Below are positions 1-36,102 of a stretch of 64,000 nucleotides of DNA, piece by piece. The notes below the pieces were generated by a model. It searched no databases, was not told the DNA's origin, and saw nothing but the letters and a program-made list of their open reading frames with translations. This DNA comes from Macrostomum lignano (lineage: Eukaryota), in NCBI GenBank assembly GCA_002269645.1, contig NIVC01000368.1, positions 186,001 through 250,000 of the forward strand, read 5' to 3'. The translations under genes and the position numbers were made by a program. Each line of letters begins with the position of its first letter. Within the stretch, counting starts at the first letter, position 1.

Positions 1-135
1 GGTTCCGACCCTAGTAACCATGAAAGAAGGCAAAGGAATTGTCGAAATTATTAACCGCCACCCAGTAGATGTGAATTTAACTAAGACTTCCCTAATTGGC
101 TTAGCCAGACCCATGAAGGCTAAAGACCTGACCTA

Positions 136-3100
136 TTGGCAGACCCCAACTCCCAGCTCCCAACCCCCTGCAAAGTCAACCAAACTCAATGTACTGAAGA
201 TTCCTGGATTAATGAAGTGAGCCTTGGCCCTGAATTATCGAATGAACAGCGTAAAGCAGTCATCGATCTTATGAAAGAAAACCGTGAAGCTTTTTCCCAG
301 AATGAATTAGACATGGGCCTGACACACTTAGTAACCCACGAAATCTCTATCAAAGACCCCACCCCAGTTAGAATCCCAGCTAGACGCATCCCCCCACACT
401 TGCAAAAGCAAGTTGACGCCCAATTAGACGATATGTTAGCCAAAAACCTAATCAGACCCTGCTATTCAACTTACTCCACTCCCCCTAGTAATTGTCCCCA
501 AGAAAGATGGTTCTATCAGAATCGTGAGCGATTTCCGAGTGCTCAACTCAAGAGTTAATTATTACCCCTACCCCCTCCCCAATATTCAAGAGACCTTCTC
601 CCACCTAACTGGTAGCCAATACTTTAGCAGCCTTGATTTAAACTCAGGATACTGGCAAGTCCCCATCAAAGAGGAAGATAAACATCGAACCGCATTCTCC
701 ACCCTAACTAGAGGCCAATTTGAATACCAAGTAATGGCCCAAGGACTTTCCAATGCCCCCGGAACCTTCCAACGCCTAATGAATTTAGTCCTATTAGGAA
801 TCCAACACAAGTTCGCCATGTCTTATATAGACGACATAATAGCCTACTCCCAAACTTTTGCCGAACATTTAGAGCACTTAAGAGAAGTGTTTAAGCGACT
901 AATTGCCGCAGGTCTGAAGTTGAGACCCAAAAAGTGCAATCTGTTCCATCACGAGTTAAAGTACTTAGGACACGTGATTGGCCGACAAGGCATTCAAACA
1001 GACAAGACGAAGATTGAAGCAATCCAAACTTGGCCCCGTCCCAAAGACGTAAAGGAACTCCGCAGTTTTCTTGGCCTATGCAATTATTATTGCCAATTTG
1101 TGAAAAATTATGCCGAAGTGGCTCACCCCCTATTCCAATTGACCCGAAAAGGAGTCCAGAGCTTCCAATCTAAATGGAACAAAGTGCATGACGAAGCCTT
1201 TGAATCCCTGAAGCAGCGAATGATGTCCACTGAAGTGTTAGCCTACCCCGAATATGTCGAAGACGAAAATGTGAAGATGGTGCTCGACACAGATGCCAGT
1301 GACGACAGGATTGGCGCATGCCTTGGCCAAATCCAGAGTGATGGCATAGAGCGACCAATAGCCTATTTTAGTAGAGCAATGAAGGAATCAGAGAAGCGTT
1401 ACCCCATTACACGGAAAGAATTGTTAGCCCTTGTCGACGCTATGAGGCATTTCAGATTTTATCTGATCGGCAAGAAATTCTTAGCCCGAACTGATCATAA
1501 AGCGATAATTTGGCTCATGAGACAAACTGAAGCAACCGGAATCCTAGGAAGATGGATAGAGCGCCTAAATGAATTCAGGTTCGACATTGAACACAGAAGC
1601 GGCGCAAAGCATTCCAATGCCGACGGATTGTCGAGAAGACCAGCTGAGATAGCTGAAGCCCCTGAAGTATCCCCTGAAGCAGCCCCTGAACTTGCTGAAA
1701 CAGCACCTGAAGTTTCTGAAGTCCCTGACGCAGCCAATGAGCCTGCTGAAGCGATCCTTGAAACCCCTGAAGTACCTGAAGCGATTCCTGAAAAAGTTGA
1801 GCCAATCCCTGAGAAAGTTGAGAAATTGACCCCTGTTCCCCTGAGAGATGAGAGTGCTCCCGCTGAAACTAAGGACAACCCCATGTCCCAGTCACCTGAA
1901 GCTCTGACAGAAAGCGAGACCCAGCCTGAATGTCTCGAATCTAGGACAAAGCTAATTGTCTCAGGTAGAGAAGTAGAAGCAGAAAAGGAGACAGGAAAGT
2001 GCGAGAAATTGTTAACTGATTATCTCCCCAGCCCCCTGAAGAAAGAACAAATCAAAGAAGCCCAAGCTGCTGACCCCATCATCAAAGCTCTGTTAGAAGC
2101 CAAGAAACAGAAGTTGAGCCAACTCCCCAAATCACCGGACGTGCCAGACAAGATCAGTAAGCATTATGCACTGATGAAAATCGATAACGAATTATTGACA
2201 ATCACCGAAGACGGAAAGAACAAAGTAGTTTTGCCCCCATCCCTAGACAAAGCAGTCTTTATTGATCTACACTGCAGCCCCCTCGCAGGACACCTAGGAA
2301 GAGATAAGACGCTCCAAAGAATAAGAGAAAGATTTTGGCGACCCGGATTGAGTACCTCAGTTGAGCAATTAATTGCTGAGTGCATCCCCTGTCTCGAGAG
2401 TAAGAAAGGCCACTTTGTGCAAGCTCCTATCCAATCGTTCCCCATTGGCGAAGCTTTCAGCCGCCTGCACATAGACATTATCGGCCCAATCTCAAAAGAA
2501 AGTAAACGAGGTCACAAATATGTTTTAACAGTTGTTGACAGCACAACTAGATATCCCTTTGCTTTTCCCATTAGGAATCAAAAATCAGACACAGTCATTA
2601 AAATACTACTTGAACGAATAGTAGCAGAGTATGGACAGCCAACGTGGATTCACACGGACAATGGAAAAACCTTTGCTAGTAGACAGTTTAAGGCATTTTG
2701 TGAATTATATAATATTCGCCACACCTTCACTACCCCCTATCACGCCCAATCTAACGGATTAGTAGAACGCTTTAATAAGCAAGTTAAATCAATCATCACC
2801 TGCCTGATCAATAAGGATCACGGTGATTGGGATTTACTAATTCCCGCAGCTTTAGTAGCCGTCCGCACCACCCCCAATGCAACAACAGGATTTTCCCCGC
2901 ATTTTCTACTATTTGGAAGAGAAGCTACTCTACCCTTAGACACTCAAATTCGAAGTACAGCAGAGCATGCCGACTATCCCGCCTATATATCCAAACATGC
3001 TGAAAGATTAGAAGAAGCTAGCAAAATCGTTAAGAGGAAATTAGAAAAAGTGACAGAGAAAAGACAGATCGCCGCTGAAACTAATAAACTTCCCCCCAGA

Positions 3101-3817
3101 GTCCCCATAGGCTGCTTAGCATTAATTAACAATCCCCAATTAGACACCGAAGAGTCCCACAAATTTCATCGGAAGAAACGATCAGCATTTAGGGTGATAG
3201 CTCAAATTTCTGAAGTAGTTTTTAAAGTTCAAAAAGAAGAAGATGGAAAATTAGTTGGCAAAGAAATGTTAGTGCACCGAGACAATTTAACGCCCGTGCC
3301 CAATTCAACCACAGAACTTTTTACTAAGGAAAGCCAGAAGAGCGCTCCCGCTCATGTTTCCGCCCCTAACCCCGCTCCTATTCCTATTTCCGCCCCTACT
3401 TTCGCCCCTACCCCCGCTTCAACTGAACCGAAGAAACAACTCCCAATTAAGGAAAGCCACCCCCGCCGGAAAATCCCAGAATTAAATCAGCCCAACTCTA
3501 TTGAATCTGAAGAATCGTCTGACGAAGAAGAAATCAATTGGCGATGCCAACTAAGAGAAGAGAATAATGAAGGAGAAATAGCTGAAGAATGGTCTGAAGC
3601 TCAGACAGAGAATGAAGAGACCGATGAGTCAGAAAACGAAGCATTGAATGAAGAAGACCCTCAACCCTTACCCCCCTCTCTTGTCCCGCGAAATCCCGAG
3701 CCCACGCACACCCACCCCTACAATCTGAGGCGCCCAACCCAAGCCAAACAAAGATGTGACTGCCATCTGAAACGTCTATTGAAAGCCCTCAATTTGTTGC
3801 GCAACCTAGAATTCTAG
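136..3817 (+). CDS. pol: Pol of element A (RT, RNase H, acidic spacer, integrase), frameshifted at the C-run 481-485
   Basis: Motifs LDLNSGYWQV, SYIDDII, LDTDASD, TDHKAI, HSNADGLSR, LHCSPLAGHLG..CIPC, LHIDIIGP, HTDNG, GLVERFN, terminal YNLR. Removing one C at 481-485 restores YSTPLVIVPKKDGSIRIVSDFR. ORF 20..220 is an upstream piece in another frame. Confidence 0.93.
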
Positions 3818-4071
3818 CCCTCTCGCCGTCCCCGATTGCGTGACAAAGCCCAAAATTTAGACAAAGAAAGAATTCATAATGGGCCATGCCAATGTACAAA
3901 TAACCCCTCAAATTATCGATCGTGGAAGAAATGGGAGCCCAAAAGAGACGAAAATTGGGGTGGGCCACGAAAATGAGAAGATCCCAAAACAGAGAGACAG
4001 AAGGACCATAATACTAAACAATCCCAGCTAGATTATATAACAATTCAAGCAACTGTTGTTTTGACAGTGAA

Positions 4072-4235
4072 ATACCGTTCTGGTATATCCGCTCTCAACT
4101 AATATCGTTCTGATATTGTTCCATCTGATATCGTTTTGATATTGTTATCCCGCTTGATATCGTTCTGATATCTCAGCCCTACTCATCGATATCGTTCTGA
4201 TATCCCAATTCTGTTCATCAATATCGTTTTGATAT
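4072..4235 (+). promoter_or_regulatory. Array of six 15-nt hairpin repeats ATATC-GTTYT-GATAT with unique spacers
   Basis: Copies at 4072 (ATACCGTTCTGGTAT), 4102, 4128, 4157, 4189, 4221; spacers 11-17 nt; function unknown. Confidence 0.75.
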
Positions 4236-4257
4236 TCCGGCTACGGCAATCGTTTTG

Positions 4258-5334
4258 ATGGCCAGCGACCAACTGAGAGACGAGTTAAGTCTCAGCGCCA
4301 GCGATGAAGATTTGAGCAGTAGCAGCGACGAGAATGCTCTGCCAGCCCCAGAACGACAGCCAACGCGGCCCAATCCTCCCGGGGCCAGGCCTCGTCCGTC
4401 GTCTGTTGTGAAGATCGCCAACCCGCAAGATCGAGCTCAGCTATTGCAGCAGCAAGCGGAGGCTCCTGTCGAGGTCTCCCCGGAGATGGCGAGACGCCAA
4501 CCCCAAGGCAGTCATGCTGCCGTAGCCCTGCCTCAGAGTGCCGCGCCGAAACCGCATATTGCCCGCCGGCTTGGCAACCATCAGTCGCTAAGATCACGTC
4601 CGAGATCACCAGCTTCGCCGCCAAGAGACCCCAGACCGCGCCCAGCTTCGTCGCCAAGAGACCCCAGACCGCGCCCAGCTTCACCGCCAAGAGACCCCAG
4701 ACCACGCCCAAGATCACCTGTGAGACCGCCTCGAGATCCAGGACCGCCGCAGGACAGACCGCCGTTACGACCCCAGCATCAGGTTATGAACGGGGCGGCC
4801 GCCCCTATTGAGCCTCTGGAAGTGGAAGTTCCGCCACTTATGCAAGAACCCCCGGAAGTCGGGCCACTGCACGAAATTGGCGGTAATTTCAGCACCATTA
4901 TGACCAATATGCCTGAATCGCTCCGTGGCGAGTATCGTCGTCGAGTATCTGAAGTTAAGGCTTATCTAGTTCGAGTCGGGCGTTTCAGGATGGACGGACG
5001 GCCCTTCCCCTCGCGAGAGGATGTGCGGCCCACCGTCCAGGCCTTGCGACGCATGCGGCCCGAGCAGGCCATCGCCGCCTGGAGGCGCGCCGTAGCCTAC
5101 GCGTTGCACGACTTGAACCGAGGTTGGGTCAACAGAGCCCAATTGAGGACCGAAGTGCAGTGGACCGGTGAGGCCTGTGGCTGGCCTTATCCTGGGAACC
5201 TGCCGACTGAAATGATCCGGTACCTGAGGTACCTCAACAGAGCCCAATTGAGGACCGAAGTGCAGTGGACCGGTGAGGCCTGTGGCTGGCCTTATCCTGG
5301 GAACCTGCCGACTGAAATGATCCGGTACCTTTGA
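4258..5334 (+). CDS. Accessory ORF3 of element A (Pro/Arg-rich N half, helical C half), unknown function
   Basis: Open 359-codon frame (ATG at 4258) downstream of pol; putative splice acceptor TTTTTGACAG ending 4067. Confidence 0.7.
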   Translation: MASDQLRDELSLSASDEDLSSSSDENALPAPERQPTRPNPPGARPRPSSVVKIANPQDRAQLLQQQAEAPVEVSPEMARRQPQGSHAAVALPQSAAPKPHIARRLGNHQSLRSRPRSPASPPRDPRPRPASSPRDPRPRPASPPRDPRPRPRSPVRPPRDPGPPQDRPPLRPQHQVMNGAAAPIEPLEVEVPPLMQEPPEVGPLHEIGGNFSTIMTNMPESLRGEYRRRVSEVKAYLVRVGRFRMDGRPFPSREDVRPTVQALRRMRPEQAIAAWRRAVAYALHDLNRGWVNRAQLRTEVQWTGEACGWPYPGNLPTEMIRYLRYLNRAQLRTEVQWTGEACGWPYPGNLPTEMIRYL

Positions 5335-6845
5335 CTCTAGTAGTATAACCTGCTTAATCCATTTTTAAAATTTTTTTTCACTCGTAAACATTGTTCGAAA
5401 AATTTTGTCAGGAAAGCCAATTGTAACAGGCTATTAATATTGTATGAATATTTTGTTTCTTTAATTAGTTTTGTTCTCCAATTAGCCTTATTTGAAATCT
5501 TAACTTTTGCCTTATCGTCTCGAGCATGAAATAGAATGTTACTTACCGCCTTTTTACGAGTTAAATACCGATGCTACTATCTTTAGTAATAATACGTATA
5601 ATAAATGCTTATTTTTCCATAAAATTAGTAACTTTAGCGTATATCTTTAATAAGAATTTTGTAATAAAAGTATTTTGTTTGAATCTGTCAGCCATTTTTA
5701 GCAATGCTACTATAAATACATGCGTGAAAACTTAGTTGAAGAGCAACTTGCGCTACTCGCTATTCAGGCCTAGTGCTGAGTGAACAGTTTGTTCTAAAAA
5801 TAGCCATTGAGTCAGCCTTGTTCATTTAGAGACGTGCAGTCTCCGCCCTCTCTCCTTCCCCAGCAGAACGAGCGTACAGCTCTTCCCTTTTCTCCCCAAT
5901 AAACTTGGTCCCTCTCCTTTCCCCAGTAGAACAAGCGTACAGCCTTTCTCCATGTTCCAGGTCCCTTCAATTTAGATTGGCGCTCCGCCAAATTCTTAGC
6001 CCAAGAAACTATTTGCTCATCCCTCCTCCAATTAGATCATTTAATTAGGCGTAATTCCTTCATATTTATTAGACGCCATACCCTCCATGAAATTATTCCC
6101 TATTAGCTGCAAGACCCTCTATTAGTGCGTAAATTCTCCAGGCAACTCTGATCCATCGCGAAGCCCTTAATTCCCCTCTCCACCTATATTCCCCGGACTG
6201 AGAATAGAAACTGTGTCTTGCCGCTCGGACACTTCACGCCACCAGGAGCAACCCACGGCTTACTCCTGTCAGTAGTAGAATTTGCATCTTTCTTTATTCC
6301 CCAATTAGGTCCCTTGTAATAATCTGATAGAATAGGAGTCAATAATTTCACCCTACCACAGATTTTGGTGTCAGCAATAGGATAATTTCCCTCCCCCAAG
6401 ACCCCTGTAACACAATTAAGAGTAAAAATATAATTGACATTAACAAGTTTCCACAGTTTCAAGTAGTAGGCAAGACAGGACTTCTGGCAAAAAATACCCT
6501 TTGCCCTTATGTAGTGTGAGCATCTTTGCGTGTATTTTGTTGTAAATTGACTGCATTAGTTTCTATATTGTTATTAAATTGTTATTTTGCTTTAGTTTAG
6601 TCATGCGTTTTTTTGTGTACTTTTTCTAGTTGGTTGAAATCTAAAATTGTAAACAGGTTAGAGTTAGACGCCAAATTTGTGACTCAGCGGAGGGTTGAGT
6701 TTGTCTGCGAACCCCAGCTTTGCGCGGTCAGCCAATCAGAACCGGCCTGGACCCTGGCACGCGGCAAGTTTCAATTCTACCCGGCGCCGCGGGCACAGTG
6801 CAAATCGGCTTATCGAGCGGCCGGCCAGACGACCACCACCCGGCT

Positions 6846-6865
6846 TGAGGGGGGGTTTTGAGGGG
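6846..6865 (+). other. Polypurine tract of element A
   Basis: TGAGGGGGGGTTTTGAGGGG ends one base before TGTGA at 6867. Confidence 0.65.
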
Positions 6866-6866
6866 T

Positions 6867-7695
6867 TGTGACTCTGACTATATATGAAAGTGTGTTTTGG
6901 CAATCGGATCTCGCCTTCTTCTCGCCTTTCTTTCCCCGGTTTTGTCTTGTCCAGCTTCCCGGGCGGTGGCCCGATTTCTCCCCTCTTGTCGGTTCGCGCT
7001 TTGAGGCGCCTGAATTCATCACCCCGGTCCGTGTTTTGTTCCCCGCCCAACCGCTTAGTCTTATAGCGGAACGATTCGGCATCCTTGTCTGACGTCGTCG
7101 CTATCAAGCGCGGTTAGATAGAGACTGTCGGATCTGATCAAGTACGCGGCCTCGACCCCGAGGGCCTCAGTGTTACACTGAAGGGCAGTGCCGATAGAAC
7201 TTAGTCGGTACTCCGTTGAACGGTCGGTTCGGCAGGGCTCTCGTTGAGTGTAGATTCTGGGTTGGGCCAGGGGTTAGGAGTCTTCTCCGTGGTCCTGTGT
7301 TCGGTTCTTCTTCTTCTTCTTCAGCGGAGATCTGCTTGCCAGTTGTGTAATCTAATAATTATTATTAACCGTTGTTGTCGTTTTGTCAACTCTAGTTATC
7401 TGCGCCGTTTGTTTGAATCTTGTAACTCAGCTAATCAAATTAAACCGTCAATCAAGTTAGTTATTCTTGAAATAGGATTATCACTCTCTAAATCTTTCGG
7501 TTTGTGTTCCCTCTTGTTCTTTCTTTTCTTGTACTGTACCTGCGGCTATTGGAGAAAGACTGGTAGAACTCGCCGACCGGCGATAGGCGATTAGGATTAA
7601 TAGCTTTAAAATCTCCGAACGCTCCAAGTAGGTTTGTCTAGGGCCTAAATAATTGCTCACCGTGCATGCTATTATCTAATTGCCTATTTATCACA
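6867..7695 (+). repeat. Putative 3' LTR of element A (~830 bp)
   Basis: Starts TGTGA after the PPT and ends TCACA (5-bp inverted termini); 5' LTR not in window to confirm. Confidence 0.6.
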
Positions 7696-7874
7696 CTTAG
7701 ATCAACATCTACTAAAATATATTGACACATAATGTGCTTACATCTAAAATCAGCTATCACCACTCATACCGAAGGATTTTTGGACGGTTAATTCACGATA
7801 TTTCCATTGCAATAATACACAACCAGTCTAGCCTCGCCTCACCTCGCTCTAATTCTCGCGCTAATCGATCCGAT

Positions 7875-18048: not shown

Positions 18049-20285
18049 ATGCACACTCAAAGAATCAAAGGCATCACGGCGCGAATGGAGCTGATTGACG
18101 GAGCGCAACCACAGTTCTGCAGAGCTCGGCTCGTGCCACTTGCGCTGGAGGAGAAGATTAACACGGAGCTCGACCGGCTACAACAGCTGAGCGTGAAAAA
18201 ATCAGACGATTTGCTACGCATGTGTGCGGACTATAAAATACATGTAAACAAAAAGATCAAGTCAGAGTCTTACCATATACCGTCGATTGAGTACCTGCTC
18301 TCTAAACTGAAAATGCAAAAAAGTTTGCAAAGATAGATCTGAGATCGGCGTATTGGCAAATCGCTCTGGATAAGGAGGAATTGTCCAACATCAACACATC
18401 CCGGGGCCATATCGCGTCACGCGTCTTCAAATGGGGATGAAAAATGCATCCTTTATATTTCAAAGAGCGATGGAGAGCATTTTGGCCGATCTCAAAGGCA
18501 TTCTGATTTACCAGGAGACTCGGCTGCTGGAAAAGAAGGTTACGATCAATGAGAGCAAATGCATCAATATGAGTGACGAGATCTCTTTCCTCGGCTTTAA
18601 GGTTTCCGCCGCTGGCATATGGCCAGACGATCGGTTGGTTGAGAAAGTGCGCCAATTTGCTCCGCCGACATCCAAAAAGGAGAATGAGCAGTTTCTCAGA
18701 CTCGTTAACTTCTTTGGGCGCCTGATCCCAGAGTTCTCATCAAAGGTCGCTCCACTTAACAAGCTGCGTAAGTCAGGCGCCGCCTTCGTGTGGACCGACG
18801 AATGCCAACGTGCATTTGACCAACCTAAAAAAGAGCTCTCTTCTCAGCCGGTCGTTCAGCCATACAGTCTTGATAAGGAAGCGACTTTGACCACCGATGC
18901 ATCCAAAGGGGCTCTTGCCGGTGTCCTGACTCAGGAGGGTCACCCTGTAATTTATATTTCCAGGACTCTATCGGAGGCCATTGTCTGGGCTGTCTCTCGT
19001 TTGAAGCATTACCTACAAGGTTGAAAGTTTGAGATCCACACTGACCATCAGCCGCTGCTCCGGCTCTATGGTGGCAGCATTCCTACCGGCACCTCGGCGA
19101 GAATAAGCAGATGGGCACTTTCGCTGATGCAGTTTAATTTCGAAATCAAATACATCCCAGGCTCAAAAATTCCTCATGCCGACGCTCTGTCTCGGCTGTC
19201 TTTTCTGAACGGCAAGCAAGACAAAGAACCCCCCGAAACAGCTCAGGCAATTAACTGCGTCACCTTTGAAACTTCGACTATCGACTCCACCCGCATTGCT
19301 TCAGAGTTGGCTGGCGATCCCCTCATGCCGAGAATTTTGAGCCGAATTCGCTCAGGTGATTGGAAAGGCTGTTCAGAGGCTGTTACCTTTCAAGAAGATT
19401 TCGGAGTGCCTGACGCTCGAGAACGGGACTACTGTACATGCGTCGACGAGTTTTTATCCCTCTGCGTCTTCGGATATAGGCCTTTAATGCCATCCACGAC
19501 ACCCACTCAGGCGTGGCTGCAGCCTATAGCCTTCTTTCGCTATCGTGCTGGTGGCCCGGCATGCAGAAGGACGTCGAGCAGTTCGTGCACCAGTGTTCCG
19601 TCTGCAATTGACTGCAGCCACGCCTATTGAAAATGAGGGATCACTGGCCACCCGCAACAATATCATTCCAGAGGGTCCACATTGACTGGGCATTCGTACA
19701 AGAAGCAGGAAATCTGCTAATTGTGGTTGACGCGCATACTCGGGTTGGATCGAAGCATTTCCTTCACCGGACAGGTCCGCAGCCAATGTAGTGAAGTCCT
19801 GGCTTCGGGCTAATGGAGCGCAAAAAATGGAAACACCCCCTACTCGCCGCAGTCGAATGGCACAGCTGAAAGAGCCGTTCAGACTGTAAAAAGGGCTTTG
19901 CAAGCTGGACCCAGTGACTAACCCACTCCGATTTCACCGCCTTTCTGCAGAAAGTCCTTCTCCACCATCGCAATTCATCCAACGCGCGTGCATGGTTCGA
20001 CGCCCGCTGAACTGGTCTTTGGTCGTCGGCTGCGCGTCCCGGTAGTTTCAACCTTCCAGCAAGGCGACCTCGTTGGCTACAAGGCAAAGCGGACACTCCC
20101 ACCAGAGATGCAGAATTTCTGATGACCCAGGGACAGAACACCTCCTGGTTGCTAGCGGACAATGCGCTTTGGTCAGCAACAATCAACTCGCGCCTCTGAG
20201 CCACAGGCTGCACAGGCCATACCGACACGGAGGAGCGAGCGAATTCGAATGGAACCCGACCGCCACAGGCCATAGAATCTGACAC
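18049..20285 (+). pseudogene. Decayed Ty3/gypsy (Mag-like) pol: RT, RNase H, integrase remnants
   Basis: DLRSAYWQI, MGMKNASFIFQRAM, TDASKG, TDHQPL, HADALSRL, RVHIDWA; stops, frameshifts, and the YxDD segment is deleted. Confidence 0.88.
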
Positions 20286-28308: not shown

Positions 28309-29289
28309 TTGGTCGCCCAGATGGAGGCGACGATCAAGACAGTGAACAACAGACCGCAACAGCCATGGAACAATCCACGCCAGCAAAGCGGAAACGCCGC
28401 GACAAGCTGCCAGTTATGTCACAAGCAGGGACATACGGCAGACAGGTGCTATCAGCGCAACCGACAGCAAGGCGCTAGCCCAGGAAGCAGCCGTCAACAG
28501 CCACAAGGAGCCAGAGGCACCAGCAGAAACTGCAACAATTGCGGTAAGCCTGGCCATTTGGCCGCTCAGTGCCGACGTTATTGTCACCATTGTAAGCAGA
28601 AGTCTCACTGGACAGTTGAATGCGACCGCCCGAGCCCCCAGAGACAGGGCCAACCGGCTCAGCGTCAAGGATACCCGAGCAACAGGAATAACGGCTATCA
28701 AGGTCCTCAGCACAATAACGGCTACCAAGGTCCTCAATACAACAACGGCCGACCAAATCAGCAACGGCAACCACGACAAATCGCGGAAGTAACCGAGGAA
28801 CAACCTCAGCAACAGCCACCGGCAGACATTCTAGCTGTGTCCACCCAGGAAGAAGAGAAAACAGCGGAACCAGTGGTGACTCGCGACGACATCATTCAAG
28901 CTCGACGACAGCTCCGCAAAGCAGCAAAGGTCAAGATTGGCTACAATATAGCGGTGACACCAACACCGCAACCACGGCAAACCGCAGAAGTAACCAAGGA
29001 GCAGCCTCAGCAACAGCCACCGACGGACACTCCAGCAGAGTCAACCAAGCAAGAAGAGACAGTTACGGAACCAGTGGTAACCCGCGACGACATCATTCAA
29101 GCCAGGCGACAACTTCGCAAGGCAGTCAAGGTCAAGATCGGCCACATCACGACGGCGACACCAACACCGCGCTCCGAGAGCGACCGGACTGAGAAGCAAG
29201 AGCGACCACGAAAGATCGAGAAATGTCCTGACACTGACGAGCCCAAGCCACAGATAGCGATTCGACAGCCGAGAACTACACCGACATGA
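28309..29289 (+). CDS. gag: Gag C-terminal part: three CCHC zinc knuckles and a duplicated 67-aa module
   Basis: CQLCHKQGHTADRC, CNNCGKPGHLAAQC, CHHCKQKSHWTVEC; ends at TGA 29287-29289. Confidence 0.9.
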   Translation: MVAQMEATIKTVNNRPQQPWNNPRQQSGNAATSCQLCHKQGHTADRCYQRNRQQGASPGSSRQQPQGARGTSRNCNNCGKPGHLAAQCRRYCHHCKQKSHWTVECDRPSPQRQGQPAQRQGYPSNRNNGYQGPQHNNGYQGPQYNNGRPNQQRQPRQIAEVTEEQPQQQPPADILAVSTQEEEKTAEPVVTRDDIIQARRQLRKAAKVKIGYNIAVTPTPQPRQTAEVTKEQPQQQPPTDTPAESTKQEETVTEPVVTRDDIIQARRQLRKAVKVKIGHITTATPTPRSESDRTEKQERPRKIEKCPDTDEPKPQIAIRQPRTTPT

Positions 29290-31209
29290 AGCCAAAGCCG
29301 ACGAACAGCCTCAACCACAGGATGGCTGCTGCGAATACTACTGCTCGCACTGTTCTGCACCGCGGCTGGCAACGCGACAACGGCACAGCACAGCAGCTAC
29401 GTGGACACACCGCTCTACTGCCCAGAAGCGAACAGCCTTCAAGCCTTCAAATTGCCTCCGGACATCGAATGCACAGTCCCGAGTAGCATTCAACAGCATC
29501 GGCAACCGATCAACATCACAGTCTACAAGGAGAACCAGGTATCACACCGGTCTACACTGAAGATATGTTACCGAGAGACCTACACGTTCACGAGTAAGCC
29601 AAAAGATTCCGCTCTTAACCGTCTTTCAACGGAGATGGTAAGTCCAGCCATGACTGTTACTGTGCAACAACATTCAGTTTCGAAGGACGATTGTAAAACA
29701 TGGGAAGAAAACACCCGAACCCAAGATGGGACGTTAGAACCAGGAGCTAAAACTATGGGACAAGCCAAACGATTCATTACCCATAAGTGGACAACCCAGG
29801 AATTGGAACCTACAGCCAGCACAGCTCAAACCTTTACTCAAACAGTGTCAGTCCTAATCACCCAGGTCTCATTCTTTGTGGAAGAGAAAAAGATGTCTTC
29901 GTTAGCCCTCCCTATAGGTCAATGCGACTACAAGACAGGAACCTGTACCACGACTACTAGCCTCACGGCAGAGAAGGACTCGCCACTGAACCGACAGGCA
30001 CCAGACAGACTCTGGGCCGTAATGGAATACTATGATCTCAGCTACACAGTGAGAGGAGATAGACAATACCGCCTAGTATGGACACCCAGCGCAGAAATAG
30101 ACTGCCCCTATCAAACAGACAGATTCATTCAAGGCAAAATTCACACTGGATGGTTCATGTCTAACGACGCTACGTTTGCCCTCACATTCAAACACCCACC
30201 TCAGACTAAGGACTTAAAATGTGGAGACACGACAGTAAAGCTATACAAGTCGGAACAAGGTAAACTAGTCCAGGTGCACGGCTCAGACCAAGAGTTTCGC
30301 AGCATAATTGAAGGCTCATTTAACAATTCAAGCACTGCTAAGAGACCAAAACGAGACCTCACATCGGACACAACGCTAGCAGCAAAATTACAAGGGCTAG
30401 AACTCACAATGGAAGACAGAATAGGCGACCTTACTCGAAACATGATACTACAACAATGCAAGCATCAGCAAACACTGTTTCGGTACATAAAAGATCTCTT
30501 TCTCATGCAGCCCACCCTAGCAGCGCGCACTTTGTTCAAAGACAGCCAATTAAAAGCCACCACGCTAGCACAGCATGTAGTCATTTCTAAGTGTCTACCC
30601 ATCAGAAACTTTCGTTTTCACCAACCAAGATGGGATGAGAATATCTGCTTTACCAAACCACCAATTGCCTTCACTATATTCAACATGAACCACACAGGCT
30701 TTCTAGATATCAGAACCCTGGAAGTCCAAAAGGAACACCCGCCGTTTCACGATTGTTCTAACCAAACGTCGTATTTTCTACCAAAAGGAGACGAAATCTA
30801 CAAAACAGACCTCAACTTTACGAAATTTACTGTGCAAACGGTCACTAAGCTAGAAAGAGAAGCGTGGGGGGTAACCCTCATAAAACCCCCAGAGATTCAG
30901 CATGTCATATTCACTCCTGATGGAGACATCAGGATAGCCGATCTCAAAAGCCCTGTCACAGTACACGACCTGTACAACCAGCTAAGTGACCAGAGAGAGT
31001 TCTTAAGAACTGTTTTCAAACTGCCCAAGTCAGAAACCTCTCACTCTATACATCTTCCACCGTTAGATGCCACCATAGCGGAAGGCACCTTTGATCCAGC
31101 AAGTTGGCTACCATGGCTAGGCATGCGAGTGAATCTTTTCGATATCGCTGTAGGAGTAGCTGCCATTGGATTCTACATATATCTTTTATACCAAATGATC
31201 CTTATCTGC
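29290..31209 (+). CDS. env: Env-like class III (gB/chuvirus G-like) fusion glycoprotein region of the polyprotein
   Basis: Signal-like WLLRILLLALFCTAAG (29323-29370); N-glycosylation sequons NIT, NNS, NHT, NQT, NFT; furin site RPKR (30343-30354); gB-like helix AAKLQ...QCKHQQ...QPTLAARTL...ATTLAQHVVISKC; TM 31144-31209. Confidence 0.8.
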
Positions 31210-31499
31210 CACAGACTCAACAAACAAAAGTACCAACGTCCTGGCATCCGCACGATCCAGCGCAAAGCTGCTGCAAAGCAAGAACAGCAGGAGCTACAGG
31301 AGTTAAGAGCACCGCTAGTAACGAACTCGACAAGCCAGAACACGCGGCAGGAGACCACGACAACCAGACAGGCACCACAGCGCCCGCCACCGTGGACGCC
31401 ACCAGCACCAGCATCAACAGGACTCTACCCGAAGATAGAGTCCAGTTGGCCACCTCCGATGGTGGCGACGATCAACAACGGCCAGAAGCAGAAGTACAC

Positions 31500-34400
31500 A
31501 ATCACCCGACTTCAAGTGGGAACGCGATCCTGCCGAGCCCTGATCGACAGTGGAGCCGAACGATCCTTAATCGACGAAACCACAGCAAAGCGATACGGCA
31601 AGACCTTCAAGCCGGCCACAGTTGAACTGCAAGGAGTACAAGGCTCACGACTACAGCAATCCGGCATGATCAACCTCCCTGTGGAAGCTGGCGACACCAC
31701 GGCTGACGTTGAGTTCCATGTTATTCCTAATTTGAGTTCAGGAACTTATCAAGTCTTATTAGGCATCGATTACTTATCTCAACTAAATCAGGGCGTGCTC
31801 GTAAACTATCAGCAACAGAATATCCATCTCAACGGAAAATGCTATGACATCCTCGCTATCACTACAAAAGAACCCGTTAACTGCATCAGATTAGTCTCTA
31901 CAGTCAATCTCAATCCATGGGAAACAACTCGAATTTCCGCAAGAGCCATCGCCAGAGAGAAACTACCTCCAGCTATGCTTTTCGAACCCAACGAACGTAT
32001 CCTGGAGAAGAAACCCATTTGCCTTACACCCGAATTGGTATACCCTGACGAGTCAGGAGAGGTTCAAGTCATCATTTCAAACGAATCGGCAACCCCAATG
32101 ACACTATATCCAGACACCAACATAGGATCTTTCGATACAGAAATCCAAGCCTTTGAAATTGCTGAAATCCAGTCAGAAACCCCAACAATGACGGAACAAG
32201 AATTCAAGAACGCCATTGATCTCAAAGGATCCAACCTGACAGAATCCCAGAAAGAACAGCTCATTAAGGTTCTCTGGGACAACAAGAAAGCCTTTTGCCT
32301 ATCCGAGGAGGAAATAGGATACACAGATGTAGCGAAACACGAGCTTCACATTAAGCCTAACGTGGAGATTAAGCTCAACAAACGATACCCAATCCCATAC
32401 CAACTCACGGGAGAACTCCAGAAGATCATCGATAGAATGGAAATGCAAGGAATTCTTAGAAAAGCAGCCACCCCGTACATCTCACCAATTCTACTGGTCA
32501 AGAAGAAACCGGAATCGCCTCAAGCCAAACCAGTGTACCGTCTCTGTGTTGATTTTCGGGACCTCAACCAAATCCTGGTCCCAGAAAGGCAATGTATGCC
32601 CCGAATCCCAGACCTCTTAGCCAAATTAAAGGGATCAGAATATTTCACTACTCTCGACATGGCGCAAGCATTTTTTCAAGTGGCGCTAGAAGAAGAAAGT
32701 CAGAAGTATTGTGGCATCTCCACGCCCGACGGACAAACTTACGTCTTCACCAGAGCCCCAATGGGTCTACAAACCTCACCAGCAGCCCTCTCTAGAGCAG
32801 CTAGCTTAATCCTTCAAGGGATTAACAGAGTCTCAACATACGTAGACGACCTACTTGTCTTCAATGAGACATTTGAAGACCATCTCGAGACATTGAAAGC
32901 TACACTAGAAGCTCTAGGAAAGTACGGCATGAAATTGAAATTACAAAAGTGCAAATTCGCTAAGCCCACAATCACATTCCTAGGACATAAGATAGACAAA
33001 AATGGAATACAGATTGATAGAGCTTTAGTCGACAAAGTGCAGAAGGTACCAAAGCCACAAAATGTCACACAGCTCAGATGTTTCCTAGGACTCTGCAATT
33101 TCTTTCGCAAACACGTACCTAACTACGCCAAGAAAGCCAAGCCACTCACAGACCTGCTTAAGGGCACACCGAACACTAAGGCTCAAGCATCCAAAACCCC
33201 ACTAAAGTGGACAGAAGAAGCGACCCAGACCTTTGAAGACATGAAAAAATGGATAGCAGAAGATCTCAGGCTCACTCACCCTGACTTTAATAAACAGTTC
33301 ATTGTCTCCAGCGACGCTTCTACAAAAGGCATAGGCGCAATGCTCTCACAGAAAGATGAGACAGGAAAAGAAAAACCAATAGCATTCACGAGTCGACAAC
33401 TGAGAGAGGCAGAGACAAGATATGCGGTCACCCATTTAGAACTCTTAGCCGTCTTTTACGCATTCAAGACATTCGAACAATTTCTGTACGCAGCGCAAAT
33501 ACCCACATTGCTAAGAATAGATCATGCACCACTCAGAGGTCTACTCACAGGGAAAACCCTGCGGAACAATCAAGTACTCAGATGGCTTCTATATTTACAA
33601 CAGTTTCAAATGCAAATTGAGTACGTCCCAGGCGCATCCACCAAACACGCAGTCCCAGATGCACTCTCAAGACTATATGAGGACCAAGAGACACCCATTA
33701 ACTTTGTCACGATCAAGCACCCGATACCACACCTGCAAGCCTTAAAAGAGGCTCAAGCAGAAGACCCATTCTGCCAAGGCATTCGAGCACTATGGGAACA
33801 AAAGCCCATGGATGACAGCTTAGCTATGAGATACAAAAGACACATCCAGCGACATCTATCGGACTATGCGGACATTCACGGAATCATCCACAGGACAGCA
33901 GATCACACCCAACAAATAGTGCTCCCATTCAAGTACCGTGAAACAATCTGCCACTCGTTACATGCACTACCACTAGCAGCGCATTTAGGCTTTGACAAAA
34001 CCCTAGAAAGAATTAGGCGACACTATTTTTGGATCTCAATGGTTTCCGATATTCGAACCTTTTGTCAAGACTGCATGGATTGCGCTAAGAACAAATCTGG
34101 CCAACTGCATAAGGGACTCATCCAAATGCCTGAAATTCCGATGAAACCAATGGACAAGCTATCAGTAGACCTAGTAGGACCCATGGTCCCCACGAAAATC
34201 CGGAACGAGACCGTCACCCACATCCTGACTATCCTGTGTTGTTTTTCAAAATTCGCCTTTGCATTCCCGATTCCAGATCTATCAGCAGAAACCACAGCCG
34301 AAACTTTGTTCCAAGTCTTCTGTACGTTTGGAATCCCGATGGAAATTTCCACCGATAATGGAAAAAATTTCACGGCATCGCTATTAGCTGAAGCTCTAGA

Positions 34401-35160
34401 AATTCTGGGAGTCAAGCACATCTTCTCGTCTACCTACCATCCGCAAGCAAACCACGTAGAGAGACTACACTCTACCCTACATAACATGCTTAGACATTAC
34501 ACTGCGGAGAATCCAAACGAATGGCATAAATATCTATCAGCCACAATCTACGCCTACAATACAGCCAAGCAATCCTCTTCAACCTATTCTCCCTTCGAAT
34601 TGGTTTTCGCGAGGAAACCCCTGATGCCCACAGAGCTCACAACTCAGCTGAACCTAGTAAGATACATGGATGAGCCGTCCTACGCAGCCCGAATGCAAGA
34701 AGCTATCACCCTGGCTAGAGACATAGCCAGACACCATCTCAAAGTGGCCCAGGAAAAGAACACAAGCAGAGCTAACAAAAACCGAATGGCCCCTACATTA
34801 GCCATAGGCACCAGAGTGATGCTACAGATCCCAATGAGACAGGGAAAGCATCAAGCCAAGTTCACGGGTCCATACGAAATTGTGAAAAGAAATAGTGCCA
34901 CGTCCGTAATGATAAGGAAAATTGACGATCCGACTCAAGAACCCTTTCAGGTGCACACGGACAGGCTAAAGCCAATAGCATCGCCAACACCCAAGGTACT
35001 GCTCCCCGATCTGCGCCCGAGTGATCCGCGAAGACTGCAACGCCAACACAGGCAACTGTTCAGCAAGGAAGTGGGCGTACAAGCTGATGACGAGACGCTC
35101 GCGGACACAGTTCGAAAGAAGTACAATCTGAGGAGCAAACCCATACTCCTAGACAAATGA
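31500..35160 (+). CDS. pol: Pol region (aspartic protease, RT, RNase H, integrase), in frame with env
   Basis: ALIDSGA (D at 31546), LDMAQAFFQV, YVDDLL (32839), SDAS, LHALPLAAHLG..CQDC, SVDLVGP, STDNG, HVERLH, YNLR; no stop from 29290 to 35157. Confidence 0.95.
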
Positions 35161-35319
35161 TGTCAGGAGATGGGGGAGAGTACAGAGACTATAAAGACTA
35201 TTTTATTTACGTATTCATTCGTTGGCGTGCTGTGCACACTAGATATAGATATCCACACTAACTATTTACTCAAATATCAATACTTAATTTTACCCTTCTA
35301 AAATTACTCATTATACCAG

Positions 35320-36102
35320 ATGTATGACCGACAGCTCGATACGCTAGATGACTGTACCCTGGGAGACGAAGATACCCAGACACCGTGTCCTATAGTTCGA
35401 CCTCTCTTCAAGCCAACATCTCACACCGAAACCGATGACCCTAAGTGGCCCGAGCAAGATATGTCAACATGGACAGAACAACAGCTGGACAAGCTACGAC
35501 AGGAATGGCAACGACGCCGACCTACGCTCCCACGACAAGCAAGCACGGCAACATCGGCGAGCAACGATTTCCACCAGGCTAAAACACTCGCAGAGCGATT
35601 CCAAACAGCTCTGGCGGCACAGACGGTAGTTCAAAGCAAGCCGGCGCGGTATGATGAAACGAAACTGTTTGACATTCACCAGCAGATGCTTGACATGCCA
35701 CTAATACCCGCTAACATCGTCACACACCTTACTACGCGACGCATCCTGTCAGATCCTAAAGACCCACGCTGGTTACTCTCTGACTATTCTATCTTGAACT
35801 TCAACACGACGCTCTTTTTCCTCTACGACGACACAGCTGCGTTCTCTTGTCTCCGTATCATAGTATGGAACAGCAGGGTGACGACAACCCTAATCCATCC
35901 TCGTGGACCGACCAGCACACTATCACTCCAAGCCGACATGCTTATCACTTATCTACTCAACACCTTAAATTATCACGGCATCGAAATCAAACCCAAGGAA
36001 CGGCAATCGATAGCCACGATTGCGTATTCACCGGCCAACCTACAATGGCACCACCTTTTCACAGCGTTGAAAGCAGCAGAAGGCCCCAACCTGGACCCTT
36101 GA
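35320..36102 (+). CDS. Accessory ORF3 of element B (260 aa), unknown function
   Basis: ATG immediately follows a polypyrimidine/CCAG acceptor (35318-35319). Confidence 0.7.
   Translation: MYDRQLDTLDDCTLGDEDTQTPCPIVRPLFKPTSHTETDDPKWPEQDMSTWTEQQLDKLRQEWQRRRPTLPRQASTATSASNDFHQAKTLAERFQTALAAQTVVQSKPARYDETKLFDIHQQMLDMPLIPANIVTHLTTRRILSDPKDPRWLLSDYSILNFNTTLFFLYDDTAAFSCLRIIVWNSRVTTTLIHPRGPTSTLSLQADMLITYLLNTLNYHGIEIKPKERQSIATIAYSPANLQWHHLFTALKAAEGPNLDP

What the first reader, a model, noticed from the sequence alone, without database searches (positions are those of the whole stretch)
4072..4235. Repeat-spacer array of six covarying hairpins upstream of ORF3 in element A
The 15-nt unit ATATC-GTTYT-GATAT recurs at 4102, 4128, 4157, 4189 and 4221 with unique 11-17 nt spacers. 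The copy at 4072 is ATACC-GTTCT-GGTAT, a double compensatory change that keeps the stem. The array starts 5 nt after a putative splice acceptor (AG 4066-4067) and ends ~20 nt before the ORF3 ATG. It would therefore form the 5' UTR of a subgenomic mRNA. Inference: a multivalent protein-binding RNA element (translation, export or packaging control, perhaps bound by the Arg-rich ORF3 protein), or paired GATA-type DNA sites.
Basis: partly seen in the sequence, partly recalled or inferred. Interest (0 to 1): 0.7.

Follow-up and report, generated by a model that had tools for sequence, protein, structure and literature searches.

The report
Eight-hairpin array in flatworm retrotransposon
A jumping gene, probably from a flatworm, carries eight small RNA hairpins with the same loop right in front of an extra gene of unknown function, probably as a multi-site landing pad for one protein that turns that gene down.

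Summary
The six 15-mers are where stated (6 exact matches), but the array has eight hairpins (4052-4263). Every loop is GUUYU with a following G. Stems covary at 4 of 6 pairs (46 of 48 cells paired); linkers are unrelated and pyrimidine-rich. Hairpin 1 buries the putative acceptor AG, and hairpin 8 buries the ORF3 AUG.

The host element is a Ty3/Gypsy LTR retrotransposon. Its nearest pol is from Macrostomum lignano (84% over RT/RNase H). ORF3 has one unnamed relative and no known fold.

Best reading: a multivalent RNA stem-loop element read by one loop-specific protein that brakes ORF3 expression. The loop equals the Roquin ADE (C-GUUYUA-G) minus its sixth base, and the bases ROQ contacts are invariant. 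However, mammalian Roquin did not enrich pentaloops in a published screen, so this is not an ADE. Rivals are Rev-like self-binding by ORF3 or Gag, inter-repeat duplexes, DNA sites and neutral repeats.

Only one copy of the element was available, so cross-copy conservation is untested. No binding or expression is shown.

The parts
452..3817 (+). pol reading frame (RT, RNase H, integrase) of Ty3/Gypsy element A; further upstream pieces lie in two other frames (2-220, 124-558)
4034..4040 (+). TATA-like TATATAA; candidate internal promoter for ORF3, predicted start about 4060-4066 (inference)
   Evidence: 1 of 5 TATAWAW matches in 1-7700
4072..4086 (+). hairpin 2: C-G replaces U-A at pair 2, loop GUUCU; core equals the Ox40 ADE core minus one A
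4100..4118 (+). hairpin 3: 7 bp, loop GUUCU
4126..4144 (+). hairpin 4: 7 bp with two wobble pairs, loop GUUUU
4156..4172 (+). hairpin 5: 6 bp, loop GUUCU; a second candidate acceptor AG follows at 4175-76
4188..4204 (+). hairpin 6: 6 bp, loop GUUCU; holds the last stop in the ORF3 frame, so ORF3 cannot extend upstream of 4201
4220..4236 (+). hairpin 7: 6 bp, loop GUUUU
4258..5334 (+). ORF3, 358 aa: acidic Ser-rich start, Pro/Arg-rich repeats (residues 98-175), predicted helical C-terminal domain, exact 105-bp duplication at its end

Best explanation
The array is an RNA cis-element of eight weak stem-loops (-2.7 to -6.3 kcal/mol each). It offers up to eight copies of one loop, Y-GUUYU-G, to one host stem-loop-binding repressor that reads the loop bases and only the shape of the stem. 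Unbound, the hairpins are too weak to stop a scanning ribosome. Bound, they would block scanning, hide the ORF3 AUG (hairpin 8) and, in the unspliced RNA, hide the candidate acceptor (hairpin 1). In the genomic RNA the array lies in the 3' UTR of gag-pol and could promote decay or P-body targeting. The leading named reader is the host's Roquin (about 0.3 overall), bound at low affinity and compensated by valency; another host protein accounts for about 0.15. Shown: sequence, pairing, covariation among the eight units, position. Inferred: folding in vivo, transcripts, binding, reader, effect.
For: The loop G,U,U,-,U and the following G are invariant in 8 of 8, while stems change on both sides at 4 of 6 pairs (46 of 48 cells paired; 0 of 500 shuffles reach the covariation score). 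Linkers are 51 of 72 pyrimidine (p 7e-5) and 7 of 72 G (p 0.008). No other GTTYTG hairpin with a stem of 5 bp or more occurs among the 74 GTTYTG hexamers on both strands of the window. Roquin link (PMC5603727 passages): the ADE is closed by C8-G15; G9, U11 and U13 are required; base 12 faces solvent with no protein contact; A14 packs into the RNA minor groove. Here the matching G, U and U are invariant, position 4 is the only variable loop base (C 4, U 4), and A14 is the only missing base. The top SELEX hexamer CGTTTT occurs in 3 of 8 units. The preferred stem is 6-8 bp (PMC11609897); 6 of 8 units have 6-7 contiguous pairs. Six stem-loops act together in NFKBID. Nematode RLE-1 uses an ADE in vivo (PMC9371910).
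Against: Mammalian Roquin-1 did not significantly enrich any pentaloop unless its outer bases paired to give a YRU triloop (PMC11609897; the supporting tables could not be read). A slipped six-base-loop register has probability 0.002 or less in all 8 units. Inter-repeat pairing is predicted to be more stable than the eight local hairpins (-48.0 against -35.7 kcal/mol). In full-length folding only 3 of 8 closing pairs exceed probability 0.5 at 37 C, against 7 of 8 when the span is limited to 25 nt. The covariation comes from eight paralogous units of one copy, and the structure was derived from them; 4 of the 7 doubly changed cells are in the two end hairpins. No flatworm Roquin was checked. 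No transcript data.
Confidence: 0.45

Rival explanations
1. The reader is element-encoded (ORF3, or Gag nucleocapsid). ORF3 binds its own leader, shuts off its own splicing and translation, and marks the unspliced genomic RNA for export or packaging, as a Rev/Rex-like feedback switch.
For: The array runs exactly from the candidate acceptor to the AUG. Hairpin 1 can exist only in unspliced or genomic RNA under either the splice or the internal-promoter model. ORF3 residues 98-175 are 19 Arg and 26 Pro of 78, and ORF3 has 6 SP motifs. Cer1 CERV, from a spliced mRNA and phosphorylation-dependent, is needed for gRNA export in a C. elegans LTR retrotransposon (PMC10309623 abstract and passages).
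Against: No Pfam family or RNA-binding fold was recognised in ORF3 (inconclusive). The model does not explain why the loop and its conservation pattern match the ADE. A packaging signal inside a subgenomic leader would not discriminate genomic RNA.
Confidence: 0.27
2. The working form is long-range or intermolecular pairing between repeats (a rod with U-rich internal loops, or a dimer linkage between two genomic RNAs), not separate hairpins.
For: Lowest-energy folds pair unit 3 with 7 and 4 with 6. GATATC is self-complementary and occurs 5 times. The pair-6 variants fit both the rod and local hairpins.
Against: Units 1, 2 and 8 are complementary only to themselves. Linker lengths are asymmetric. 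Local hairpins form first during transcription (7 of 8 above 0.5 at span 25).
Confidence: 0.1
3. It is a DNA element: an array of inverted half-sites for a dimeric transcription factor or insulator at an internal ORF3 promoter (like the gypsy Su(Hw) array; recalled, from no call).
For: A TATA-like box lies at 4034. Internal promoters drive env in Oikopleura Tor3b/4b elements (PMC4402516 passages). Units 3-7 are identical in 14 of 15 positions.
Against: 0 WGATAR sites. Units 1 and 2 change both half-sites in mirror fashion. The spacer between half-sites is invariant and asymmetric. The array lies downstream of the predicted start. No canonical HSE occurs in element A.
Confidence: 0.07
4. Neutral decayed minisatellite: duplication of a palindromic hexamer gives hairpins automatically.
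For: TRF calls parts of it tandem repeats (26 nt x 2.6, 32 nt x 2.5). An unrelated bacterial 11-bp minisatellite built on the same hexamer exists (L001). This copy's pol is split over three frames. Only one copy was seen.
Against: Linkers have lost detectable similarity (1 of 15 pairs p<0.05) while loops are invariant. The L001 repeat has a fixed period and a variable 5-mer, the opposite pattern. Double compensatory changes are present.
Confidence: 0.08

Closest known systems
Roquin alternative decay element (ADE; Ox40, HOMEZ, ITCH, C. elegans ets-4)
   Same: C-G closing pair, loop starting GUUYU, free position 4, 6-7 bp stems of variable sequence, several stem-loops acting together
   Different: Five-base loop lacking the sixth base; pentaloops were not enriched by mammalian ROQ; eight near-regular copies; in a retrotransposon, in front of an AUG rather than in a host 3' UTR
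Cer1 CERV system of C. elegans (Rev-like export)
   Same: LTR retrotransposon with an accessory protein that could act on its own RNA
   Different: CERV has a Cys-rich domain; a word search of that paper found no stem-loop target; ORF3 lies after pol and no similarity to CERV was tested directly
Oikopleura Tor elements (extra ORF from splicing or an internal promoter)
   Same: Extra ORF made either by splicing (Tor3a) or from an internal promoter (Tor3b/4b; in the intergenic space after pol in Tor4b)
   Different: There the ORF is env; ORF3 has no env match, and no hairpin array appears in the passages read
5' UTR iron-responsive element; coronavirus SL5 repeated UUYCGU loops; engineered MS2 arrays (all recalled, from no call)
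   Same: Protein-bound hairpins near a cap or AUG; repeated identical loops on variable stems
   Different: Different loop sequences; no Rfam match

Membership tests
Roquin ADE | six-base loop RUUNHR | tested here: not met
   five-base loop in 8 of 8; slipped register probability 0.002 or less
Roquin ADE | G1, U2, U3, U5 in the loop; position 4 free | tested here: met
   invariant in 8 of 8; position 4 is C in 4 and U in 4 (determinants)
Roquin ADE | C-G closing pair and 6-8 bp stem | tested here: met
   C-G in 7 of 8 (U.G in 1); 6-7 contiguous pairs in 6 of 8
Roquin ADE | binding by a ROQ domain and Roquin-dependent repression | not testable with these tools
   the published screen on mammalian ROQ is against pentaloops
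Roquin ADE | Roquin present in the host | not tested
   PMC11172303 reports one rc3h gene in invertebrates but names no flatworm in 4 search terms
Roquin CDE | YRU triloop | tested here: not met
   a G.U-closed triloop would read UUY; no CDE hit in the array
Rfam RNA families | match at gathering score | tested here: not met
   3 hits at E 1.4-7.1, all far below gathering score, in 3800-4500
CRISPR array | repeats over 20 nt, spacers about 30 nt matching foreign DNA, cas genes (definition recalled) | tested here: not met
   15-17 nt units, 11-17 nt low-G spacers; 1 of 6 spacers has a one-mismatch 11-mer elsewhere in the window; no Cas family among 14 ORFs scanned
GATA-factor sites | WGATAR on either strand (consensus recalled) | tested here: not met
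   0 sites in 4040-4270
M. lignano SL trans-splice acceptor | top motif YTNCAG | tested here: not met
   neither TGACAG (4062-67) nor TCTCAG (4171-76) fits; both fit the cis motif CAG (motifs from PMC8629364)
Rev/CERV-like export system | accessory protein with a known RNA-binding fold | tested here: inconclusive
   single-sequence model pLDDT 73; best Z 8.3 among helical bundles; no Foldseek hit at E 0.001
Ty3/Gypsy LTR retrotransposon (host element) | RT-RNase H-integrase order in pol | tested here: met
Ty3/Gypsy LTR retrotransposon (host element) | paired LTRs, PBS, gag | not testable with these tools
   the 5' part lies outside the window; self-comparison found no second LTR

The most novel reading that the evidence does not exclude
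A flatworm LTR retrotransposon has built an eight-site array for the host mRNA-decay factor Roquin, using a five-base variant of the ADE loop. It thereby gates its accessory gene (and its genomic RNA) by cell type or stress, or sponges Roquin or rides it to P-bodies. This would be a transposon wired on purpose to a decay pathway proposed to have arisen as defence against such RNAs (PMC5031192 passages), and would show a pentaloop specificity in an invertebrate ROQ domain.
Probability: 0.28. Interest if true: 0.8.

Novelty: new variant of a known kind. Interest (0 to 1): 0.56.

Why it matters
Natural arrays of many identical protein-binding hairpins on freely varying stems are rare, and none was found described for an LTR retrotransposon in five literature searches (listings only, open-access library). 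The array gives its own internal covariation series and a short, directly testable motif in a genus with transgenesis (PMC12801592). Either leading reader would be informative. Roquin would link a transposon to an ancient decay pathway and extend ROQ specificity. ORF3 would give a Rev-like switch with a defined RNA target, which was not found in the Cer1 paper.

Tried and rejected
Rfam: no match. ORF3 homologues: none in the 90% set at 196-627 aa (0 of 128 candidates) or at 628-2000 aa (0 of 101). The 50% library gave 2 hits: P0123 is real (51% over 45 aa, a chimeric unnamed model) and P0124 is a repeat-protein chance hit. Atlas: no usable hit. Pfam: none for ORF3. Fold searches of the C-terminal model gave only generic helical bundles; AppA SCHIC (Z 8.3, rmsd 2.5, 78 aligned) and Gle1 CTD (Z 8.2, rmsd 3.0, 105 aligned) are within background. 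A SAM-domain resemblance seen by eye was not supported. HSE: none in element A. No second array was found outside satellites in the window, including element B. Prokaryotic genomes: 1 hit, an unrelated 11-bp minisatellite. Phages: none. Supplement of PMC12801592: no cluster of the motif, but it holds only 6 of 137 families and the alignment rows were cut. Cluster membership of ORF3 and the three M. lignano pols could not be looked up. No other copy of element A was reachable. The supporting tables of PMC11609897 were not readable.

Full report
Observation. The six 15-nt units are at the stated positions with 0 mismatches to the degenerate pattern. The search with up to 2 mismatches gave 7 matches in the window against a mean of 0.65 in shuffles, and none of 100 shuffles reached 7. 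Spacers are 15, 11, 14, 17 and 17 nt. A scan for GTTYTG hexamers flanked by a stem found eight in 4052-4263, with loops at 4058, 4077, 4107, 4133, 4162, 4194, 4226 and 4252. No hexamer with a stem of 5 bp or more lies elsewhere among the 40 plus-strand and 34 minus-strand hexamers of the window. The two added hairpins are not chance: 0 and 3 in 200,000 local shuffles. Hairpin 8 holds the ORF3 AUG in its 3' arm.

Structure. In the ungapped alignment of the eight units the invariant columns are loop G1, U2, U3, U5 and the closing G. For a six-pair stem, 46 of 48 cells pair, 4 of 6 pairs show changes on both sides (7 cells), and none of 500 shuffles reached the covariation score of 0.494; slid controls scored 0.04-0.11. 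RNAalifold gives the same structure. Caveats: these are paralogous units of one copy, the structure was read from them, and 4 of the 7 doubly changed cells are in the two end hairpins. The two wobble cells within the six pairs, and two more at pair 7, pair on the plus strand, which weakly favours plus-strand RNA over DNA. Linkers are 51 of 72 pyrimidine and 7 of 72 G, and only 1 of 15 spacer pairs reached p<0.05. Against a simple picture: the region's folding z-score is only -2.5. Cross-pairing between units is predicted to be more stable than eight local hairpins (-48.0 against -35.7 kcal/mol): 3 of 8 closing pairs exceed probability 0.5 in full folding and 7 of 8 at a 25-nt span.

Context. 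The upstream frame encodes RT, RNase H and integrase in Ty3/Gypsy order. The three best of 120 listed relatives are Macrostomum lignano proteins (84, 65 and 59% over residues 1-300), and the best is 61% identical over 975 aligned residues. The host is therefore probably a Macrostomum species (inference). Most M. lignano LTR families are Ty3/Gypsy (PMC12801592, first two of six parts, passages and supplement searches). This copy's pol start is split over three frames, through decay or assembly error. The array begins 235 nt after the pol stop, and there is no ATG between 3974 and 4257.

ORF3. It is 358 aa, Pro- and Arg-rich in the middle, with a predicted helical C-terminal domain (pLDDT 73, single sequence). 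It has no Pfam family and no specific fold match. One real relative was found, inside an unnamed chimeric model (51% over 45 aa), which suggests that it is a real protein family.

How ORF3 mRNA is made is open. Candidate acceptors at 4067 and 4176 fit the cis motif CAG but not the top M. lignano trans-splice motif YTNCAG (PMC8629364 passages). A TATATAA at 4034 lies 32 nt before the A of CAGT at 4066, and Tor elements use both splicing and internal promoters for their extra ORF (PMC4402516 passages). Either way hairpin 1 is whole only in the genomic RNA, where the array lies in the gag-pol 3' UTR, while hairpins 2-8 would form the ORF3 leader.

Mechanism. An invariant loop on sequence-variable stems with unstructured linkers is the signature of a multivalent site for one loop-reading protein (inference). 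Each hairpin is weak (-2.7 to -6.3 kcal/mol), so repression would need the protein. Binding would block scanning, mask the AUG and possibly the acceptor, or recruit decay. The loop is the Roquin ADE minus its last base. In the ROQ-ADE structure C8-G15 closes the stem, G9, U11 and U13 are needed, base 12 has no protein contact, and A14 packs in the RNA minor groove (PMC5603727 passages). The array keeps exactly the contacted bases and varies exactly the free one. Against this, a screen of all tri-, tetra- and pentaloops found pentaloops enriched only when they collapse to a YRU triloop (PMC11609897 passages and section 9; supplements not readable), and the six-base register is improbable here. 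Larger loops are tolerated (PMC11730611 passages), nematode RLE-1 uses an ADE in vivo (PMC9371910 passages), and invertebrates have one Roquin gene, though no flatworm is named (PMC11172303 passages). My estimates: Roquin about 0.3, another host protein 0.15, ORF3 or Gag 0.27 (precedent CERV; PMC10309623 abstract and passages), inter-repeat duplex 0.1, neutral 0.08, DNA sites 0.07. A functional RNA element of some kind comes to about 0.8.

Comparison and novelty. It works like a multi-site stem-loop response element but fails membership of ADE (loop size), CDE, Rfam families, CRISPR and GATA arrays. The only prokaryotic match to two adjacent units is a fixed-period 11-bp minisatellite with a variable 5-mer, the reverse of the pattern here; phages gave nothing. 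Five searches of the open-access library (listings only) showed no such array in an LTR retrotransposon; subscription papers were not covered.

Verdict. Real, larger and better organised than reported: a new variant of a known kind of RNA element. Interest 0.56; 0.8 if the Roquin link holds.

Noticed in passing
window 28321-36102: A second Ty3/Gypsy element (B) has a Monjiviricetes (chuvirus-type) fusion glycoprotein match (E 2.6e-6, just under the curated cutoff) upstream of protease in the same frame as pol, so an env-like part lies between gag and pol; an orphan 260-aa ORF follows pol.
   Followed up: no
window 35190-35220: TATAAAG followed 27 nt later by TCATTC between element B's pol stop and its extra ORF: a candidate internal promoter paralleling element A; no hairpin array there.
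   Followed up: partly
window 5815-6555, minus strand: Stop-free stretches of 74 and 123 codons on the antisense strand between ORF3 and the element's 3' end look coding but are in pieces; no Pfam match. Possibly an antisense accessory ORF.
   Followed up: partly
window 5129-5330: Exact 105-bp tandem duplication at the end of ORF3, repeating the segment conserved in P0123; recent, or an assembly artefact.
   Followed up: partly
window 3818-3975: The pol frame stays open for 52 codons after its TAG; the M. lignano relative ends at about the same place as the TAG, so this is probably chance.
   Followed up: partly
window 6730-6930: CCAAT, a GC-rich stretch, a G-run and TATATAT at 6879 suggest the 3' LTR promoter; the LTR boundaries could not be fixed.
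   Followed up: no
window 4609-4710: 33-bp x 3.1 tandem repeat encoding the Ser-Pro/Arg-Pro repeats of ORF3, candidate phosphorylation sites.
   Followed up: no
window 18431-19024: A third RT/RNase H fragment, with no GUUYU hairpin nearby.
   Followed up: partly
L001 485-608: Intergenic 11-bp minisatellite built on GATATC in a Bacteroidales MAG; unrelated to the finding.
   Followed up: yes
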